Shown: positions 35,813-39,783 of the stretch, one piece after another | How the letters are laid out: each line of letters begins with the position of its first letter | How positions within the stretch are numbered: the stretch's first letter is position 1 | Assembly: GCA_001464965.1 (NCBI GenBank) | Contig: LNEJ01000065.1 | Coordinates: 4,548 to 68,547 of the forward strand | Direction of reading: 5' to 3' | Length of the DNA: 64,000 nt | Origin: Gammaproteobacteria bacterium Ga0074134 | Lineage (GTDB): Bacteria > Pseudomonadota > Gammaproteobacteria > Ga0077554 > Ga007554 | Translations under genes and position numbers: made by a program | Notes under the pieces: generated by a model | The model's database searches: none | What the model was told of the DNA's origin: nothing | Seen by the model: the letters and a program-made list of their open reading frames with translations, nothing else

Positions 35813-38020
35813 ATGGGTACCCCAATCGCAACCAGCATCCCGGCTTTCTGTGAAGGCATTCAATACTTCGCCGAAGCCCTGCCCGGCTTTGAGGAATATG
35901 CCGCACATCCGGCCATCGCCGCAGGGCAGAGCGCCGTGGCTGATCCTGGCGATGCGCGCGCGGTATTCCAAACCCTGCTGGGGGCGGATGCACTGCGCTA
36001 CCTCACTCTGCAAATGACGGGCTCCAAGGCCTCCGGCCATCCGGGCGGGTTTGCCAGCAGCGCCGAGGCCTACGCCTCGCTGGTGATGCTGGGGCACACC
36101 AACATCGTCACCGAGGTGGGGCATCATGCCCCAGGTTTTTACAGCGCCATGTTCATGGATTCCTCGCTGGAGGAGATGGGCATCAACACGGTGCAAGACC
36201 TGCGTGCGCGCTTCCGCGAGAAGCACGGCTTGCTTGGTCACCTCTCTGGCGCCATTCCCGGCATTCTCGCTCCCGCAGGGCCGCTGGGGCAGGGTCAGCA
36301 CTTCGCCATGGCGGGGGCGATGCTGCACCCTGGTACGCTGTTTCCCTTCACGCTCGGTGATGGCGGCATGGGCGAGCCGTATATCCTGAATGCCATGATG
36401 CACTTCCATGTTGCGTTTCCCGCGATCACCAACTTCCTGCCGGTGCTGATCTGGAATGGCTACAGCCAGGAGCATCACGCAATGGTCTCTTTATTCACCG
36501 ATGAGGAGATGATTGCCTACTGGAAGGGGCACGGCTTTGAGTCCGTGTATCTGGTGGACGCCAAGAATTTTGATGACGCGGGCCAGAGCGGTGCATTTGT
36601 GGATAGCACCCGCTTCTCGATGGGCAATCGTCTGGCATTCACGCGCGCCATGCTGGAAACCATGAGCGAGGCGGCGCAGTCCGCGCTGGGCGGCAAGCTC
36701 ACGGCCTTTATTGTCAAGCAGCTCAAGGGCTCGGGTGTGCATGCGCTGGGTGCGAAGTCGCACAACCTTTATCCCCAGCACACACTTGAAAACGTCGACG
36801 TTGTTGAAGGCCTCAAGCGCCGTGCGCTCTCCCCGCAGGCGTGGCAAATTGTGCGCGACAACTTCAGCCGCGCCGGTGGGGGGCCTGCCGCGCGCACCGT
36901 GGTGACAGAATCGGTGCTGGCGCTGACGCCGGTCACGCATTTGCCCTTGCAGGAGTTTGCTTTGGGTGAAAACAAGCCGCCGACCACGGCGATGGGCGCG
37001 CTGGTGGGCGCGGTGGGCAAGCAGGATGCGCGCTTTCTGGTGACCAATGCTGATGGCAACGAGGCCTCTGGTATCGGCAACATCAACGAGGCATTGAAGA
37101 TTCGTCATCCCACGGCAGATGCGCTGTACCACCAGACGCCTAACGGCCAGGTATACGAGCCGCTCAATGAAGACGCCTGCGCGGGTCTGGCGGTGGGATT
37201 GGCGCTGTTCGGCAGCCGCAGCCTGTGGTGCTCCTATGAGAGTTTTGCCATCAACGGCCTGCCGATTCTTCAGACCGTGACCCAGGCCATGGCTGAGCTG
37301 CGCCGCAAGACACCCAGCGTTGTCACGCTGTTTACCGCCGGTGCACTGGAGCAGGGCCGTAACGGTTGGACGCATCAGCGTCCGGAGATCGAGGCCTACT
37401 TCGCCGCCATGATGCGCAATGGAAACGTGTTCCCGGTGTTCCCGGTGGATGCCAACATGATCCAGGCCGCCTATGCCTGGGCGCTGGACAGCTATAACAA
37501 GGGTGTCATCATCACTGCATCAAAGAGCCCGTTGCCAGTCCGCACCACACTGGAACAGAGCCGCCGCGCGTTGGCCGATGGTGCGATTACGTTGTTTGAG
37601 CATCCCGGCGTGAAGACCATAGTGTTCGCGGTGGTGGGTGACATGATCCTGCTGCCTGTGTTCGAGGCAGCGGAAAAATTAAAGGCGGCGGGCTTTGGCG
37701 TGAAGATCGTCGCCGTGGTCAACCCGCGCCGTCTCTATCGCTCCACCGATGTGGCCTGGGACACGTGCTCGGAGCCGGACAATCTGTTCCTCGACGACGA
37801 CCATTTCAATGCCCTGTTCGATGGCGATGTGCTGTTGGGCGTGAGCGGCGGACCCAGTGGCACACTGGAGCCGGTCATGCTGCGCACCCGTGCGCCGAAG
37901 CGCGACGTGTTCGCCTGGAAGCGTGGTGAGACCACTGCCTCGCCTGCGGAGATCATGGGCTTTAACGGCCTGACGGGCGATAATCTGGCGCAACGGGCGC
38001 GGCAGTTGGCAGGGGTTTGA
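35813..38020 (+). CDS. Divergent phosphoketolase-family (TPP-dependent) enzyme.
   Basis: ~735 aa from the Met preceded by AGGAG. SGHPGG where Xfp has GHWGT. Xfp-like blocks WCSYESF, GWTHQRPE, PVDANM and GVIITASKSPLP. Shorter than canonical ~800-aa phosphoketolases. Confidence 0.65.
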   Translation: MGTPIATSIPAFCEGIQYFAEALPGFEEYAAHPAIAAGQSAVADPGDARAVFQTLLGADALRYLTLQMTGSKASGHPGGFASSAEAYASLVMLGHTNIVTEVGHHAPGFYSAMFMDSSLEEMGINTVQDLRARFREKHGLLGHLSGAIPGILAPAGPLGQGQHFAMAGAMLHPGTLFPFTLGDGGMGEPYILNAMMHFHVAFPAITNFLPVLIWNGYSQEHHAMVSLFTDEEMIAYWKGHGFESVYLVDAKNFDDAGQSGAFVDSTRFSMGNRLAFTRAMLETMSEAAQSALGGKLTAFIVKQLKGSGVHALGAKSHNLYPQHTLENVDVVEGLKRRALSPQAWQIVRDNFSRAGGGPAARTVVTESVLALTPVTHLPLQEFALGENKPPTTAMGALVGAVGKQDARFLVTNADGNEASGIGNINEALKIRHPTADALYHQTPNGQVYEPLNEDACAGLAVGLALFGSRSLWCSYESFAINGLPILQTVTQAMAELRRKTPSVVTLFTAGALEQGRNGWTHQRPEIEAYFAAMMRNGNVFPVFPVDANMIQAAYAWALDSYNKGVIITASKSPLPVRTTLEQSRRALADGAITLFEHPGVKTIVFAVVGDMILLPVFEAAEKLKAAGFGVKIVAVVNPRRLYRSTDVAWDTCSEPDNLFLDDDHFNALFDGDVLLGVSGGPSGTLEPVMLRTRAPKRDVFAWKRGETTASPAEIMGFNGLTGDNLAQRARQLAGV

Positions 38021-38102
38021 TGTAAGGTATAAAGTATCAGGCGCAGGCTCCGTGTGCTGCGCCTGATACATCACTCCATCAACACCTGCGAAAGGAAAGA
38101 AA

Positions 38103-38369
38103 ATGAAAAAATTATTTTCCGCGATTGTGTTCTCTGCGCTGGCTGTTCTCAGTGTTAACGTTTCTTTTGCCGCTGATGCGGAAAAGCTTGATGTCAACAC
38201 AGCCACTGAACAGCAGTTGACTACCTTGTCCGGCGTAGGTGAAGCCAGGGCCAAGGACATTATTAAGGGGCGCCCTTACAAGGCCAAGGATGATCTGGTG
38301 AAAAACAAAATCATTCCCCAATCAGTCTATGACAAGATCAAAGAAAAAATTATCGCCAAGCAGAAATGA
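38103..38369 (+). CDS. Secreted ComEA-like helix-hairpin-helix protein.
   Basis: 88 aa. Signal peptide. VNTATEQQLTTLSGVGEARAKDI HhH motif. Confidence 0.65.
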   Translation: MKKLFSAIVFSALAVLSVNVSFAADAEKLDVNTATEQQLTTLSGVGEARAKDIIKGRPYKAKDDLVKNKIIPQSVYDKIKEKIIAKQK

Positions 38370-38472
38370 TTCGGCAATAAAGCAGCCAAATGTATGGTGG
38401 GTTCGCGCTTTTTGCGCAACCCACCAAGCGTTGCGTAGCAACACAATAGCTTGAGTTTCCAAAGGCCGCGCA

Positions 38473-39783
38473 ATGACCACAACCAAAATCATCGTCCTAG
38501 ACGACGACCCCACCGGTTCACAGACTGTTCACGGTTGCCTGCTGCTGACACGCTGGGATGTCGACGCCCTCAAGGAGGCGTTGGCTGATGCCGCGCCGCT
38601 GTTCTTCGTGCTTACCAATACGCGAGGCATGAGTGCCGGGCGTGCTGCGGAAGTGACGCGTGATGTGTGCCGCAATCTGAAAATAGCGCTGAATGGAGCA
38701 GGCATCAACCCGGTGCTGGTGAGCCGCTCCGATTCAACGCTGCGCGGCCACTACCCCATCGAAACCGATGTGATCGCCGAAGAACTCGGGCCGTTCGATG
38801 CGCATTTTCTTGTCCCTGCTTTCTTTGAGGGCGGTCGCGTTACCCGTGACAGCATTCATTACCTCAAAGTGAATGGCGTGGATATCCCCGTGCATGAAAC
38901 CGAATTTGCGCGCGACTCAGTGTTTGGCTATCGCCACAGCTATCTGCCCGATTATGTGGAAGAGAAGACGGGCGGCCGTATTTCCGCAACTGAAGTTGAG
39001 CGTTTTCTGTTGGCGGATATCCGCCATGGCGTGCTCGACAGGTTGCTGGCTCTGGAAGGCAATCGTTGTGGCGCGGTGGACGCTGAGAATTACGATGATC
39101 TGGCGCGCTTCACGGCGGATGTGCGCGTGGCGGCAGGTCAGGGCAAGCGCTTTTTGTTCCGTAGCGCGGCGAGCCTGGTGAAGGCGCTGGCTGATTTGCC
39201 ACCCCAGCCGGTGGCTGCCGAGGCGATGAGTCAATTCACGCGCAATCACAGTCCCGGTGCTGTGATTGTTGGGTCTCACGTTGAGAAGAGCAGCCGCCAG
39301 TTGGCACGGCTGTTGGAAGAGGCCGGTGCAATGGGCATTGAAGTCGACGTGCGGCGGATTCCAGCAGAGCGCGATGCCGTGTTGCAAGACACATTGAAAC
39401 ACATCAATGCAGCCTATCAAGCTGGCAAAACAGCCGTGGTATATACGAGCCGCGGCGAAGTGCAATTCTCCGATCAGGCCGCGCGCCTGGCCTTCGGCGA
39501 AGCCGTATCTGCCCTGCTAATGGACGTGATACGCAACCTGCCGCAAGATCTGGGTTTTCTGATCGGCAAGGGCGGCATCACCTCCAACGACATGCTGAGC
39601 ACCGGCCTCGCATTACGCGCCGCTCGCGTCCTCGGCCAAGTCGCGCCCGGTGTTTCGGTGGTGCGCTGCCCTGCCGATCATCCGCGTTTTCCGGATATGC
39701 CGGTGGTGATTTTTCCGGGGAATGTGGGGGATGACGATACGCTGGCGCTGGTGTGCCGACGGTTTATGCGTGAGGCTGAGTAG
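38473..39783 (+). CDS. Four-carbon acid sugar kinase family protein (DUF1537/DUF2090; OtnK/DtnK-like).
   Basis: 436 aa. N-terminal IIVLDDDPTGSQT is characteristic of the YgbK/OtnK family. Confidence 0.7.
   Translation: MTTTKIIVLDDDPTGSQTVHGCLLLTRWDVDALKEALADAAPLFFVLTNTRGMSAGRAAEVTRDVCRNLKIALNGAGINPVLVSRSDSTLRGHYPIETDVIAEELGPFDAHFLVPAFFEGGRVTRDSIHYLKVNGVDIPVHETEFARDSVFGYRHSYLPDYVEEKTGGRISATEVERFLLADIRHGVLDRLLALEGNRCGAVDAENYDDLARFTADVRVAAGQGKRFLFRSAASLVKALADLPPQPVAAEAMSQFTRNHSPGAVIVGSHVEKSSRQLARLLEEAGAMGIEVDVRRIPAERDAVLQDTLKHINAAYQAGKTAVVYTSRGEVQFSDQAARLAFGEAVSALLMDVIRNLPQDLGFLIGKGGITSNDMLSTGLALRAARVLGQVAPGVSVVRCPADHPRFPDMPVVIFPGNVGDDDTLALVCRRFMREAE

What the first reader, a model, noticed from the sequence alone, without database searches (positions are those of the whole stretch)
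35813..39783. IclR-regulated operon pairing a divergent phosphoketolase-family enzyme with a four-carbon acid sugar kinase
The 735-aa TPP enzyme carries phosphoketolase-type blocks (WCSYESF, GWTHQRPE, PVDANM..A, GVIITASKSPLP). It replaces the near-invariant GHWGT N-terminal motif with SGHPGG and is ~70-90 aa shorter than canonical Xfp. It is co-transcribed with a DUF1537/DUF2090 kinase, the family that includes 3-oxo-tetronate, D-threonate and D-erythronate kinases. It sits under a divergent IclR regulator. Phosphoketolases normally act on xylulose-5-P or fructose-6-P, so a pairing with a C4 acid-sugar kinase suggests an uncharacterised route. The kinase product, or a derived keto-sugar phosphate, may be cleaved phosphorolytically to acetyl-phosphate plus a shorter unit. 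The usual partners of this kinase family (PdxA2-type dehydrogenase, class II aldolase, isomerase) are absent from the locus.
Basis: partly seen in the sequence, partly recalled or inferred. Interest (0 to 1): 0.78.

Follow-up and report, generated by a model that had tools for sequence, protein, structure and literature searches.

The report
Orphan thiamine enzyme–kinase–glycolate oxidase module
A very conserved but biochemically untested thiamine enzyme, neither phosphoketolase nor transketolase, always sits beside an acid-sugar kinase and usually beside glycolate oxidase in CO2-fixing bacteria, which suggests an undescribed way of recycling the glycolate that Rubisco's oxygenase reaction produces.

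Summary
Three things were missed. An 88-aa helix-hairpin-helix gene and two perfect hairpins lie between the ThDP enzyme and the kinase. A Fic gene has been inserted after the kinase. glcD-glcE-(GST)-glcF lies just downstream.

The ThDP protein belongs to a tight, isolated clade. Members are at least 70% identical from Gamma- and Betaproteobacteria and Acidithiobacillia to Cyanobacteria. They are below 30% identical to any phosphoketolase or transketolase. Its N-terminal domain resembles transketolase and its Pyr domain resembles phosphoketolase. Synechocystis sll0529 ("Pkt2/Xfp2", activity never verified) carries the family signature.

In all 23 proteobacterial loci examined, the order is IclR, then divergently the ThDP enzyme, then the kinase. 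glcDEF follows directly in 16 of them. Gloeobacterales-type loci link glcE/F to the ThDP gene. Four loci add a class-II FBA-family gene (the family of the 2OtnC decarboxylase) at the kinase.

Best reading (about 0.33): this is a glycolate/glyoxylate salvage module. A ThDP-bound ketol is joined to glyoxylate to give oxo-tetronate. The kinase phosphorylates it, and decarboxylation gives DHAP. The chemistry is inferred, not shown. No paper found links these genes.

The parts
34952..35719 (-). IclR-family transcriptional regulator, 255 aa, divergent from the ThDP enzyme gene
   Evidence: It has HTH_IclR and IclR_C domains. The best NCBIfam hit is the glyoxylate-linked regulator BhcR at 176 bits, below the 350 cut-off; KdgR, PcaR, IclR and AllR score lower. 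It is present upstream in 23 of 23 proteobacterial loci.
35719..35752 (.). Two candidate operator boxes: TTTCACATTATGAAA at 35719-35733 and TTACATATTGCGAAA at 35738-35752. They lie in the iclR/ThDP-gene intergenic region and abut the iclR start codon.
   Evidence: The boxes are conserved in 12 gamma- and betaproteobacterial loci (alignment A3). They are the only matches in the 64-kb window. Binding by the regulator is inferred.
35813..38020 (+). Orphan ThDP enzyme of the transketolase/phosphoketolase superfamily, 735 aa; same family as Synechocystis sll0529
38034..38069 (+). Perfect 13-bp-stem hairpin directly after the ThDP gene, with no T-run
   Evidence: not scored as a terminator.
38103..38369 (+). 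Small secreted helix-hairpin-helix (ComEA-like) protein, 88 aa. It is a lineage-specific insert between the ThDP gene and the kinase and is not part of the conserved module.
   Evidence: HHH_3 at 43.7 bits. It is found only in the closest relatives L001-L003, L005, L006, L008 and L085. In other loci the kinase follows the ThDP gene within 2-200 nt.
38473..39783 (+). DUF1537-type (SBD_N + NBD_C) acid-sugar kinase, 436 aa, of a divergent and highly conserved clade
39801..41021 (-). Fic/DOC family gene. It is a recent insertion that separates the kinase from glcD and is not part of the module.
   Evidence: Fic_N and Fic domains. Window 39769-41185 has no counterpart in L001, L002 or L008, which are about 90% nt-identical; there the kinase and glcD are about 30-40 bp apart.
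41123..42625 (+). Glycolate oxidase subunit GlcD (the true start is probably the ATG near 41135)
   Evidence: NF008408 scores 882 bits against a cut-off of 897. Sequence shown.
42622..43695 (+). Glycolate oxidase subunit GlcE
   Evidence: NF008439 scores 536 bits against a cut-off of 284.
43755..44414 (+). Glutathione S-transferase-like gene between glcE and glcF; seen only in the close relatives
   Evidence: Cluster c28 occurs in 4 loci.
44496..45728 (+). Glycolate oxidase iron-sulfur subunit GlcF
   Evidence: It has two CCG domains and a 4Fe-4S dicluster domain. It clusters with the glcF genes of 13 loci.

Best explanation
The finding is the front end of a conserved glycolate/glyoxylate salvage module of Calvin-cycle autotrophs: iclR, then divergently the ThDP enzyme, the kinase and glcDEF.

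Proposed steps:
1. GlcDEF oxidises glycolate, derived from 2-phosphoglycolate, to glyoxylate. This rests on family assignment.
2. The orphan ThDP enzyme forms a ThDP-bound C2 ketol (dihydroxyethyl-ThDP) from a Calvin-cycle ketose phosphate. It transfers the ketol to the aldehyde of glyoxylate, giving the four-carbon 3-oxo-tetronate. This step is inferred.
3. The DUF1537-type kinase phosphorylates the terminal hydroxyl. This is inferred from family precedent.
4. The beta-keto-acid phosphate is decarboxylated to DHAP and CO2. The catalyst would be a class-II FBA-family (2OtnC-like) enzyme. That enzyme is encoded next to the kinase in some genomes and would be supplied by a housekeeping class-II aldolase, or replaced by spontaneous decarboxylation, in others. 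This step is inferred.
5. The IclR regulator binds the conserved boxes and responds to glyoxylate or a pathway intermediate. This step is inferred.

ATP use and decarboxylation would pull the reversible ketol transfer forward.

Confidence in the general statement (a glyoxylate-linked module, not an ordinary phosphoketolase) is about 0.6. Confidence in the full chemistry is about 0.33.
For: 1. Conserved synteny. IclR lies upstream and the kinase directly downstream of the ThDP gene in 23 of 23 proteobacterial loci. glcD/E follow directly in 16. The same order occurs in cultured Thermithiobacillus tepidarius, where the ThDP stop and kinase start are 2 nt apart, and in Sulfuritortus calidifontis. 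Fourteen further loci were recovered from the kinase side.
2. Independent linkage in another phylum. Gloeobacterales-type loci L016 and L017 have a glcE-like gene and glcF immediately upstream of the ThDP gene on the same strand.
3. Distribution. By record titles, the carriers are sulfur, iron and nitrite oxidisers and cyanobacteria. From my own knowledge, all are Calvin-cycle users.
4. Both proteins are unusually conserved. The ThDP enzyme is at least 70% identical and the kinase 60-69% identical between phyla. The ThDP clade is isolated from all other families.
5. The histidines, glutamate and other residues that make and hold dihydroxyethyl-ThDP are kept. Two family-invariant arginines, R516 and R523, flank the catalytic His521. 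They fit an anionic substrate held next to the reaction centre.
6. A class-II FBA-family gene follows the kinase in L014, L104 and L136 and sits beside iclR in L139. In the published three-step tetronate route, a DUF1537 kinase (2OtnK) is followed by an F_bP_aldolase-family decarboxylase (2OtnC) that gives DHAP (PMC12540250; PMC12994016).
7. A C2 ketol plus glyoxylate gives exactly a four-carbon oxo-acid sugar, the substrate class of this kinase family (chemistry; inference).
8. A conserved operator lies in the divergent promoter. The regulator's best model is the glyoxylate-linked BhcR.
Against: - No activity has been measured for any member.
- The Pyr domain carries phosphoketolase-type residues: Tyr475, Gln514, Asn517 and Lys571, at the positions of PK Tyr501, Gln546, Asn549 and Lys605. 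The residue roles are from my memory of the B. breve structure work. These residues would favour dehydration and phosphorolysis to an acyl phosphate over ketol transfer.
- The route would recover only one of the two glyoxylate carbons, less than the glycerate pathway.
- The dedicated aldolase-family gene is present in only 4 loci.
- In 9 cyanobacterial-type loci the same kinase clade is followed by a tartronate-semialdehyde-reductase equivalog instead. H1 does not explain this.
- In most cyanobacteria the ThDP gene and the kinase are not linked.
- A Synechocystis double mutant lacking slr0453 and sll0529 grew normally under photomixotrophy (PMC9034593). That condition does not test photorespiration.
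- Calvin-cycle status of this window's organism was not shown.
Confidence: 0.33

Rival explanations
1. The ThDP protein is a genuine but divergent phosphoketolase ('Xfp2/Pkt2'). It makes acetyl-phosphate from Xu5P, F6P or S7P, or from glycolaldehyde or hydroxypyruvate. The acetyl unit could condense with glyoxylate through malate synthase encoded elsewhere, or feed energy metabolism. The kinase would have a separate acid-sugar role.
For: - Phosphoketolase-type residues are kept in the Pyr domain, and all the catalytic histidines are kept.
- The Pyr domain scores 50.9 bits against phosphoketolase and 21 bits against transketolase.
- The best whole-protein PDB and Foldseek hits are phosphoketolases.
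- Databases and cyanobacterial papers call it phosphoketolase or Pkt2.
- E. coli's glc operon pairs glcDEF with malate synthase G, so an acetyl donor near glcDEF has a logic (my knowledge).
Against: - It scores at most 85 bits against NCBIfam phosphoketolase cut-offs of 777-1518.
- It is 18-23% identical to phosphoketolases.
- GHWGT is replaced by the transketolase motif SGHPGG, and GGELGY by GPLGQG. His548 is Arg.
- The N-terminal domain's best PDB hit is a split transketolase.
- No pta, ackA or malate synthase gene is among the recurrent neighbours.
- This reading does not explain the 23-of-23 coupling to a DUF1537-type kinase, including a 2-nt gene junction.
- Authors state that phosphoketolase activity of sll0529 is unverified (PMC7744508).
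Confidence: 0.2
2. This is a non-orthologous glycerate pathway. The ThDP enzyme acts as a glyoxylate carboligase analogue (2 glyoxylate give tartronate semialdehyde and CO2). A tartronate semialdehyde reductase encoded elsewhere, or next to the kinase in cyanobacteria, makes glycerate. The DUF1537-type kinase acts as a glycerate kinase, or as a hydroxypyruvate kinase, giving 3-phosphoglycerate.
For: - A 2-hydroxy-3-oxopropionate reductase equivalog (TIGR01505, 377-390 bits, cut-off 340.75) lies directly after the same kinase clade in 9 loci.
- The module is linked to glcDEF and a glyoxylate-type regulator.
- The superfamily includes DXS, which decarboxylates a 2-oxo acid and ligates it to an aldehyde (my knowledge).
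- This route would retain 75% of the carbon.
Against: - No member of the transketolase/phosphoketolase branch is known to carry out the carboligase reaction.
- No DUF1537 kinase is known to act on a C3 acid (family summaries).
- The reductase gene is absent from the proteobacterial clusters.
- The class-II FBA-family gene in 4 loci is left unexplained.
- The HIBADH-type neighbour could instead be the LtnD/DenD-type dehydrogenase of the tetronate route.
Confidence: 0.15
3. This is a tetronate (D-erythronate / L-threonate) salvage operon. The GlcDEF-type D-2-hydroxyacid oxidase makes 2-oxo-tetronate. The kinase is a 2OtnK orthologue. The ThDP enzyme decarboxylates 2-oxo-tetronate 4-phosphate to glyceraldehyde 3-phosphate, or to an acyl phosphate, in place of or alongside 2OtnC.
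For: - The kinase clade sits next to HIBADH-type and F_bP_aldolase-type genes. These are the partner families of the published three-step LtnD-2OtnK-2OtnC route, which is said to occur in cyanobacteria.
- ThDP enzymes commonly decarboxylate 2-oxo acids.
- All three steps would be encoded in the cluster.
- Erythronate could arise from erythrose-4-phosphate side reactions in Calvin-cycle cells (my knowledge).
Against: - GlcE passes and GlcD nearly passes the glycolate-oxidase equivalog cut-offs, so glycolate is the expected substrate.
- L014, L104 and L136 carry both the ThDP enzyme and the aldolase-family gene, which would be redundant under this reading.
- The catalytic residues kept are those that handle a C2 dihydroxyethyl intermediate.
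- It gives no reason for the restriction to autotrophs beyond speculation.
Confidence: 0.15
4. One reading: the kinase phosphorylates a C4 acid sugar, and the ThDP enzyme then cleaves that product, or a derived keto-sugar phosphate, phosphorolytically to acetyl-phosphate and a shorter unit such as glyoxylate.
For: - Phosphoketolase-type Pyr-domain residues are kept.
- The gene pairing is tight.
- Elimination of phosphate from a 4-phospho-3-oxo-tetronate-ThDP adduct is chemically conceivable (inference).
Against: - The route would produce glyoxylate, so glcDEF would have no place upstream or downstream of it.
- The gene order ThDP-kinase-(aldolase) in L014, L104 and L136 suggests the ThDP step comes first.
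- Phosphorylation blocks the hydroxymethyl group that phosphoketolases normally dehydrate.
- No source of the C4 acid is encoded.
Confidence: 0.08

Closest known systems
Xylulose-5-P/fructose-6-P phosphoketolase (Xfp; e.g. Bifidobacterium breve 3AHC, B. longum 3AI7)
   Same: It has the same three-domain ThDP fold (Foldseek TMq 0.76). His64, 97, 142, 320 and 553, Glu479, Tyr501, Gln546, Asn549 and Lys605 are conserved in the alignment. The Pyr domain is clearly phosphoketolase-like.
   Different: It is only 18-23% identical. It fails every NCBIfam phosphoketolase model by about 700 bits or more. GHWGT becomes SGHPGG, GGELGY becomes GPLGQG, and His548 becomes Arg. It is 55-90 aa shorter, and XFP_C is not detected in the window protein. 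Its genomic partners are a DUF1537-type kinase and glcDEF, not pta or ackA.
Transketolase (including split-chain TK, 6YAK)
   Same: The N-terminal PP domain's best PDB sequence hit is a split transketolase, with SGHPGG aligned residue for residue. The GPLGQG and GDGxxxE motifs are present. Foldseek TMt is 0.72-0.74. The proposed reaction is a transketolase-type ketol transfer.
   Different: NCBIfam transketolase models score at most 39 bits against cut-offs of 488-788. The transketolase phosphate-binding and acceptor residues, as I recall them (E. coli Arg358, Ser385, His461, Asp469, Arg520), align with Thr, Asn, Ala, Asn and Lys (hand comparison).
Synechocystis sp. PCC 6803 sll0529 ('PKET2/Pkt2/Xfp2')
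   Same: It belongs to the same family. The sll0529 row in the published alignment reads AVYQTLLAADALRYLTLQTTASKESGHPGGFAS, against AVFQTLLGADALRYLTLQMTGSKASGHPGGFAS in the window protein (supplement of PMC7744508).
   Different: It is known only as a presumed phosphoketolase isoenzyme. Its activity is unverified. A double knockout has no photomixotrophic phenotype. No link to the kinase or to glycolate metabolism is reported.
DUF1537 tetronate kinases and their pathways (3OtnK/OtnC four-step; LtnD-2OtnK-2OtnC three-step; DtnK/DenK with PdxA2)
   Same: It has the same two-domain architecture and fold. The same partner families, F_bP_aldolase and HIBADH, appear next to this kinase clade in some genomes. 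The end product DHAP would suit a Calvin-cycle cell.
   Different: It scores 74 bits against DtnK (cut-off 450), 24 bits against OiaK, and shows no other kinase model. It is 16-22% identical to the solved members. Here the upstream enzyme is a ThDP enzyme rather than a dehydrogenase, and the context is glycolate oxidase rather than sugar-acid uptake.
E. coli glc operon (glcC-glcDEFGBA) and the bacterial glycerate pathway (Gcl-GlxR-GlxK)
   Same: Glycolate oxidase genes are clustered with the genes that dispose of glyoxylate, under a dedicated regulator.
   Different: The glyoxylate-consuming enzymes here are an orphan TK/PK-family enzyme and a DUF1537-type kinase, not malate synthase G or Gcl/TSR/glycerate kinase. 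The regulator is IclR-type, not GntR-type.

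Membership tests
Phosphoketolase (Xfp, EC 4.1.2.9 / 4.1.2.22) | Scores above the curated cut-off of a phosphoketolase family model | tested here: not met
   The six NCBIfam phosphoketolase models score 55-85 bits against cut-offs of 777-1518. 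The Pfam XFP and XFP_N domain models pass their low gathering scores (47.2/22 and 33.5/23.7). XFP_C was not detected.
Phosphoketolase (Xfp, EC 4.1.2.9 / 4.1.2.22) | N-terminal GHWGT motif and GGELGY motif | tested here: not met
   The family has SGHPGG and AGPLGQG at these positions. The six phosphoketolase-type sequences in A1 have GHWGT and GGELG.
Phosphoketolase (Xfp, EC 4.1.2.9 / 4.1.2.22) | Catalytic and phosphate-site residues His64, His97, His142, His320, Glu479, Tyr501, Gln546, His548, Asn549, His553, Lys605 (B. breve numbering; roles from memory) | tested here: inconclusive
   Ten of the eleven are kept: H76, H104, H143, H317, E453, Y475, Q514, N517, H521 and K571. His548 is Arg516, which is invariant in the family.
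Phosphoketolase (Xfp, EC 4.1.2.9 / 4.1.2.22) | Forms acetyl-phosphate from Xu5P or F6P and phosphate | not testable with these tools
   This needs an enzyme assay. For the Synechocystis member, the literature states the activity is unverified (PMC7744508).
Transketolase (EC 2.2.1.1) | Scores above the curated cut-off of a transketolase model | tested here: not met
   Scores are 25-39 bits against cut-offs of 488-788.
Transketolase (EC 2.2.1.1) | SGHPG and GPLGQG motifs of the PP domain | tested here: met
   SGHPGG aligns with the same motif in split transketolase 6YAK.
Transketolase (EC 2.2.1.1) | Substrate phosphate and acceptor residues (E. coli Arg358, Ser385, His461, Asp469, Arg520; from memory) | tested here: not met
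   By motif register, these align with Thr392, Asn412, Ala509, Asn517 and Lys571. This is a hand comparison; no E. coli sequence was included in the alignment, so treat it as approximate.
DUF1537 four-carbon acid sugar kinase family | SBD_N (PF07005) plus NBD_C (PF17042) architecture and fold | tested here: met
   Scores are 192 and 132 bits. The AF2 model has pLDDT 86.9. The only Foldseek PDB hits with E below 0.001 are the seven DUF1537 chains.
DUF1537 four-carbon acid sugar kinase family | Equivalog of a characterised member (DtnK, OiaK, OtnK) | tested here: not met
   DtnK scores 74 bits against 450, OiaK 24 against 700, and nothing else is found even at E up to 10. The best PDB sequence hit is 28.7 bits. 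No 2OtnK reference sequence was available.
DUF1537 four-carbon acid sugar kinase family | Pathway partners nearby (dehydrogenase; OtnC/2OtnC-type decarboxylase; isomerase) | tested here: inconclusive
   They are absent in the window. An F_bP_aldolase-family gene is at the kinase in 4 related loci, and an HIBADH/TSR-type gene in 9.
IclR-family regulator | HTH_IclR plus IclR_C domains | tested here: met
   Scores are 52 and 149 bits. It is not an equivalog of BhcR (176 against 350), IclR or AllR. The effector was not tested.
Glycolate oxidase GlcDEF | Equivalog-level matches to GlcD and GlcE, and the GlcF architecture | tested here: met
   GlcE scores 536 against 284. GlcD scores 882 against 897, marginally below. 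GlcF has 2 CCG domains and a 4Fe-4S dicluster domain. Substrate range was not tested.

The most novel reading that the evidence does not exclude
Calvin-cycle autotrophs, from sulfur, iron and nitrite oxidisers to cyanobacteria including Synechocystis (sll0529), may possess a previously unrecognised natural route for 2-phosphoglycolate/glyoxylate salvage. A third functional branch of the transketolase/phosphoketolase superfamily would ligate a C2 ketol to glyoxylate. A dedicated DUF1537-type kinase would then commit the C4 oxo-acid to triose phosphate. The route would need no ammonia release and no reductant.
Probability: 0.3. Interest if true: 0.9.

Novelty: new variant of a known kind. Interest (0 to 1): 0.75.

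Why it matters
How Calvin-cycle bacteria dispose of glyoxylate made from 2-phosphoglycolate is only partly known. Natural alternatives to the plant C2 cycle are sought as templates for photorespiratory bypasses in crops and engineered autotrophs.

This module offers two uncharacterised, extremely conserved enzymes placed exactly where a glyoxylate-consuming step is expected. Cultured carriers exist (Thermithiobacillus tepidarius, Sulfuritortus calidifontis), as does a genetically tractable model (Synechocystis sll0529).

It also bears on annotation and modelling. Hundreds of database entries call this protein 'phosphoketolase' or 'transketolase'. Cyanobacterial flux models treat sll0529 as a second phosphoketolase without biochemical support.

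If the enzyme turns out to be an ordinary phosphoketolase, the conserved coupling to a DUF1537-type kinase would still need explaining.

Tried and rejected
- Canonical Xfp or plain transketolase. Rejected on model scores, motifs, identity, and clade isolation in the 1.84-billion-protein representative search.
- Co-transcription of the ThDP gene and the kinase in this window. It cannot be asserted. The gap holds an ORF and two hairpins, and the promoter/terminator scans are at background. Relatives with 2-200 nt junctions support an ancestral operon.
- Literature search for a described link between this family and DUF1537, glcDEF, tetronates or photorespiration. Nothing was found in ten searches. 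Zhang 2016 (PNAS) and the B. breve phosphoketolase structure paper are not held, so residue roles are from memory. Guo 2024 was seen only through citing papers.
- Using solved DUF1537 structures or NCBIfam models to assign the kinase substrate. All are equally distant, so this was uninformative.
- Cyanobacterial neighbours of the ThDP gene (a divergent P450, a downstream Uma2 nuclease, Microcoleus-specific genes). Judged lineage synteny without functional signal.
- minCDE and a 2-TM protein next to the cyanobacterial kinase. Conserved, but not interpretable.
- Look-up of the Sulfurifustis protein P0047. It is not on record.
- Genome-wide co-occurrence of the ThDP gene, the kinase, gcl, glxK and Rubisco.

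Full report
**What is in the window**

The region reads, left to right:
- pilB, pilC and pilD (30971-34935, +).
- An IclR-family regulator (34952-35719, -).
- A 735-aa ThDP enzyme (35813-38020, +).
- An 88-aa secreted helix-hairpin-helix protein (38103-38369, +).
- A 436-aa SBD_N/NBD_C kinase (38473-39783, +).
- A Fic gene (39801-41021, -).
- glcD (41123-42625), glcE (42622-43695), a GST-like gene (43755-44414) and glcF (44496-45728), all on the + strand.

The first is the small ORF, together with the two perfect hairpins at 38034-38069 and 38395-38426. The second is the Fic gene. The third is the glycolate oxidase genes.

The Fic segment (39769-41185) has no counterpart in three relatives that are about 90% nt-identical. 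In those relatives the kinase and glcD are about 30-40 bp apart. The HhH gene occurs only in the closest relatives. In this genome, therefore, an ancestral operon has been interrupted twice. Co-transcription of the ThDP gene and the kinase here is unproven; the scans are at background.

**The ThDP enzyme is a third branch, not Xfp and not transketolase**

- Model scores. Pfam gives only weak XFP, Transket_pyr and XFP_N hits. NCBIfam phosphoketolase models reach at most 85 bits against cut-offs of 777-1518. Transketolase models reach at most 39 bits.
- Clade isolation. A search of 1.84 billion representatives clustered at 50% identity found essentially one other full-length representative (58% identical) plus fragments. 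The next full-length relatives drop to 24-30% identity and at most 86 bits.
- Conservation inside the clade. Members are 71-97% identical across Gammaproteobacteria, Betaproteobacteria (Thiobacillus, Gallionellaceae, Nitrotoga, Sulfuritortus), Acidithiobacillia (Thermithiobacillus) and many Cyanobacteria.
- Structure. An AF2 model (pLDDT 81.8) matches phosphoketolases (TMq 0.76) and transketolases (TMt 0.72-0.74) about equally, at 16-19% identity.
- Domain by domain. The N-terminal PP domain's best PDB hit is a split transketolase, with SGHPGG aligned (34.8 bits against 29.5 for phosphoketolases). The Pyr domain is clearly phosphoketolase-like (50.9 against 21 bits).
- Residues. The alignment with phosphoketolase-type sequences shows that the positions of PK His64, 97, 142, 320 and 553, Glu479, Tyr501, Gln546, Asn549 and Lys605 are retained. 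His548 is Arg516, and SHQD becomes THQR (Arg523). Both arginines are invariant in the 40 family members aligned. The residue roles come from my memory of the B. breve structural work; that paper is not held.

**The family is already named in cyanobacteria, but not characterised**

The supplementary alignment of Bachhar and Jablonsky (PMC7744508) shows Synechocystis sll0529 with the family signature ...YQTLLAADALRYLTLQTTASKESGHPGGFAS.
- That paper treats sll0529 as 'PKET2' and states that its phosphoketolase activity still needs experimental verification.
- A 2024 review repeats the Pkt2 label.
- A double mutant lacking slr0453 and sll0529 grew normally under photomixotrophy (PMC9034593).

**The kinase**

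The kinase has the DUF1537-type architecture and fold. The only significant Foldseek hits are the solved DUF1537 proteins, at 16-22% identity. It is far from every characterised member: DtnK scores 74 bits against a cut-off of 450, OiaK scores 24, and the best PDB sequence hit is 28.7 bits. Like the ThDP enzyme, it forms a highly conserved clade. Members are at least 69% identical in proteobacteria and 60-68% identical to cyanobacterial members.

**Conserved context**

- Among 80 genome loci fetched with the ThDP protein, all 23 proteobacterial loci have the IclR gene divergently upstream and the kinase immediately downstream.
- glcD/E follow the kinase directly in 16 of those loci. They are displaced but nearby in 2, degenerate in 1, and absent within the flank in 2. 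In the remaining 2 the contig ends.
- The recurrent gene clusters across the loci are exactly ThDP, kinase, IclR, GlcD, GlcE and GlcF.
- From the kinase side, a metagenome scan recovered 14 more loci with the ThDP gene directly upstream.
- Two cultured chemolithoautotrophs carry the intact module. In Thermithiobacillus tepidarius DSM 3134 the ThDP stop and kinase start are 2 nt apart. In Sulfuritortus calidifontis an aldehyde dehydrogenase and a TRAP transporter follow glcF.
- In Gloeobacterales-type cyanobacterial loci, a glcE-like gene and glcF lie directly upstream of the ThDP gene on the same strand. This is an independent ThDP-glycolate oxidase linkage in another phylum.
- The iclR/ThDP intergenic region carries two conserved boxes, TTTCACATTATGAAA and TTACATATTGCGAAA. 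They are shared by 12 gamma- and betaproteobacterial loci and are unique in the window.
- The regulator's best family model is BhcR, followed by KdgR, PcaR, IclR and AllR, all below cut-off. BhcR, IclR and AllR are glyoxylate-responsive regulators, from my own knowledge.

**Extra partners seen only in some genomes**

- A class-II fructose-bisphosphate-aldolase-family gene (PF01116) lies directly after the kinase in L014, L104 and L136. An aldolase-Dabb fusion sits beside iclR in L139.
- In 9 cyanobacterial-type loci that have no ThDP gene within 7 kb, the kinase is followed by a protein that passes the tartronate-semialdehyde-reductase equivalog cut-off. It scores 377-390 bits against 340.75; the L-threonate dehydrogenase model scores 184-190 against 350.
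- The literature describes a three-step tetronate route: an HIBADH-type LtnD/DenD dehydrogenase, then the DUF1537 kinase 2OtnK, then the F_bP_aldolase-family decarboxylase 2OtnC, giving DHAP. It is said to occur in cyanobacteria (Guo 2024, as cited in PMC12540250 and PMC12994016).
- The kinase clade therefore keeps the company expected of an oxo-tetronate kinase.

**Most likely mechanism**

GlcDEF supplies glyoxylate. The module's position corresponds to that of malate synthase in the E. coli glc operon, which suggests that the ThDP enzyme and the kinase consume glyoxylate.

A transketolase/phosphoketolase-family enzyme generates dihydroxyethyl-ThDP. Adding that C2 ketol to glyoxylate gives 2-hydroxy-3-oxo-4-hydroxybutanoate, which is 3-oxo-tetronate. 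This belongs to the substrate class of the kinase family. Phosphorylation followed by decarboxylation of the beta-keto acid gives DHAP. The decarboxylase would be 2OtnC-like where it is encoded; otherwise a housekeeping class-II aldolase or spontaneous decarboxylation would have to serve.

The two family-specific arginines beside the catalytic His521 fit a carboxylate held at the reaction centre. ATP hydrolysis and decarboxylation would make the route irreversible. That fits the tight, sometimes translationally coupled, ThDP-kinase gene pair.

What is shown: gene identities, conservation, synteny and residue patterns. What is inferred: every chemical step after glyoxylate formation, the donor substrate and the regulator's effector. 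I put about 0.6 on 'glyoxylate-linked salvage module, not an ordinary phosphoketolase' and about 0.33 on the full scheme.

**Why the rivals stay alive**

- The phosphoketolase-type Pyr-domain residues argue for acyl-phosphate chemistry (phosphoketolase rival, 0.2).
- The reductase adjacency argues for a glycerate-pathway analogue in which the kinase acts on a C3 acid (0.15).
- The LtnD/2OtnK/2OtnC-like company argues for tetronate salvage, with GlcDEF as the oxidase and the ThDP enzyme as a 2-oxo-acid decarboxylase (0.15).
It gives glcDEF no role, and phosphorylation blocks the hydroxymethyl group a phosphoketolase acts on.

**Limits**

- The organism of the window is an uncultured gammaproteobacterium, judged from the titles of the 96-97% identical loci. 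No Calvin-cycle gene lies in the parts of the window I annotated.
- 'Restricted to Calvin-cycle autotrophs' rests on taxon names and my own knowledge, not on a genome-wide test.
- In most cyanobacteria the two genes are unlinked. I could not test whether they co-occur in the same genomes.

**Novelty**

The protein families are known, and the ThDP family has a label in cyanobacteria. Its reaction, its distinctness from Xfp and transketolase, and its conserved coupling to a DUF1537-type kinase and glycolate oxidase are not described in the literature I could search. I rate it a new variant of known kinds, with a realistic chance of defining a new natural photorespiratory salvage route.

Noticed in passing
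window 39769-41185: A Fic/DOC-family gene on the opposite strand lies between the kinase and glcD. It is absent from three relatives that are about 90% nt-identical (L001, L002, L008). The segment upstream of glcD (about 41020-41130) is AT-rich. No flanking repeats were examined.
   Followed up: partly
window 38103-38369: An 88-aa ComEA-like helix-hairpin-helix protein with a signal peptide is inserted between the ThDP gene and the kinase. It is bracketed by perfect hairpins (38034-38069 and 38395-38426). It is conserved only in the nearest relatives (L001-L003, L005, L006, L008, L085).
   Followed up: partly
window 296-8236: A biotin operon (bioB 296-1318, bioF 4749-5897, bioH 5894-6673, bioC 6642-7562) has an IS1380-family transposase (3236-4579) sitting between bioB and bioF.
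   Followed up: no
L039, L048, L055, L070, L081, L083 and about 24 metagenome loci (e.g. L101:6267-6920): In cyanobacteria the kinase is almost always preceded by a protein of about 220 aa with two predicted membrane helices and no Pfam match. This protein is sometimes present in 2-3 tandem copies (L039, L055). The kinase is followed by minC-minD-minE. The meaning is unknown.
   Followed up: partly
L098, L110, L112, L113, L120, L123, L124, L126, L133 (e.g. L110:8428-9306): A tartronate-semialdehyde-reductase equivalog lies directly downstream of the same kinase clade, in loci without the ThDP gene nearby. The best explanation does not account for this.
   Followed up: partly
L014:13556-14392, L104:7894-8739, L136:3879-4736, L139:2724-3848: Divergent class-II FBA-family genes are attached to the ThDP-kinase pair. 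All score below the cut-offs of the specific FBA/GatY models; L136 passes the broad ketose-bisphosphate-aldolase subfamily model TIGR00167. The L139 copy is fused to a Dabb (stress-responsive A/B barrel) domain.
   Followed up: partly
L166:16463-20220 (Sulfuritortus calidifontis AP018721.1): An aldehyde dehydrogenase and a TRAP transporter (DctPQM) follow glcF. They could oxidise glycolaldehyde to glycolate and take up a C2-C4 acid.
   Followed up: no
L032, L042, L055, L068, L069, L075, L078 and Microcoleus loci: In many cyanobacteria a cytochrome P450 gene lies divergently upstream of the ThDP gene. In a partly different set of loci (e.g. L028, L042, L047, L048, L069, L070) a Uma2-family nuclease gene lies directly downstream. 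Potamolinea sp. R1S1 carries two copies of the ThDP gene on different contigs (L075, L078).
   Followed up: no
L054 (JACCVJ010000518.1, 'Tatlockia sp.' MAG, 2.7-kb contig): A family member that is 71% identical sits on a short contig binned to a Legionella-like genome. This is probably a binning error. If not, it is an exception to the autotroph-only distribution.
   Followed up: no
window 34945-34951: Synteny with the closest relatives ends immediately beyond the iclR stop codon. The pilBCD genes to the left of the module in this window are not at that position in L001, L002 or L008.
   Followed up: no
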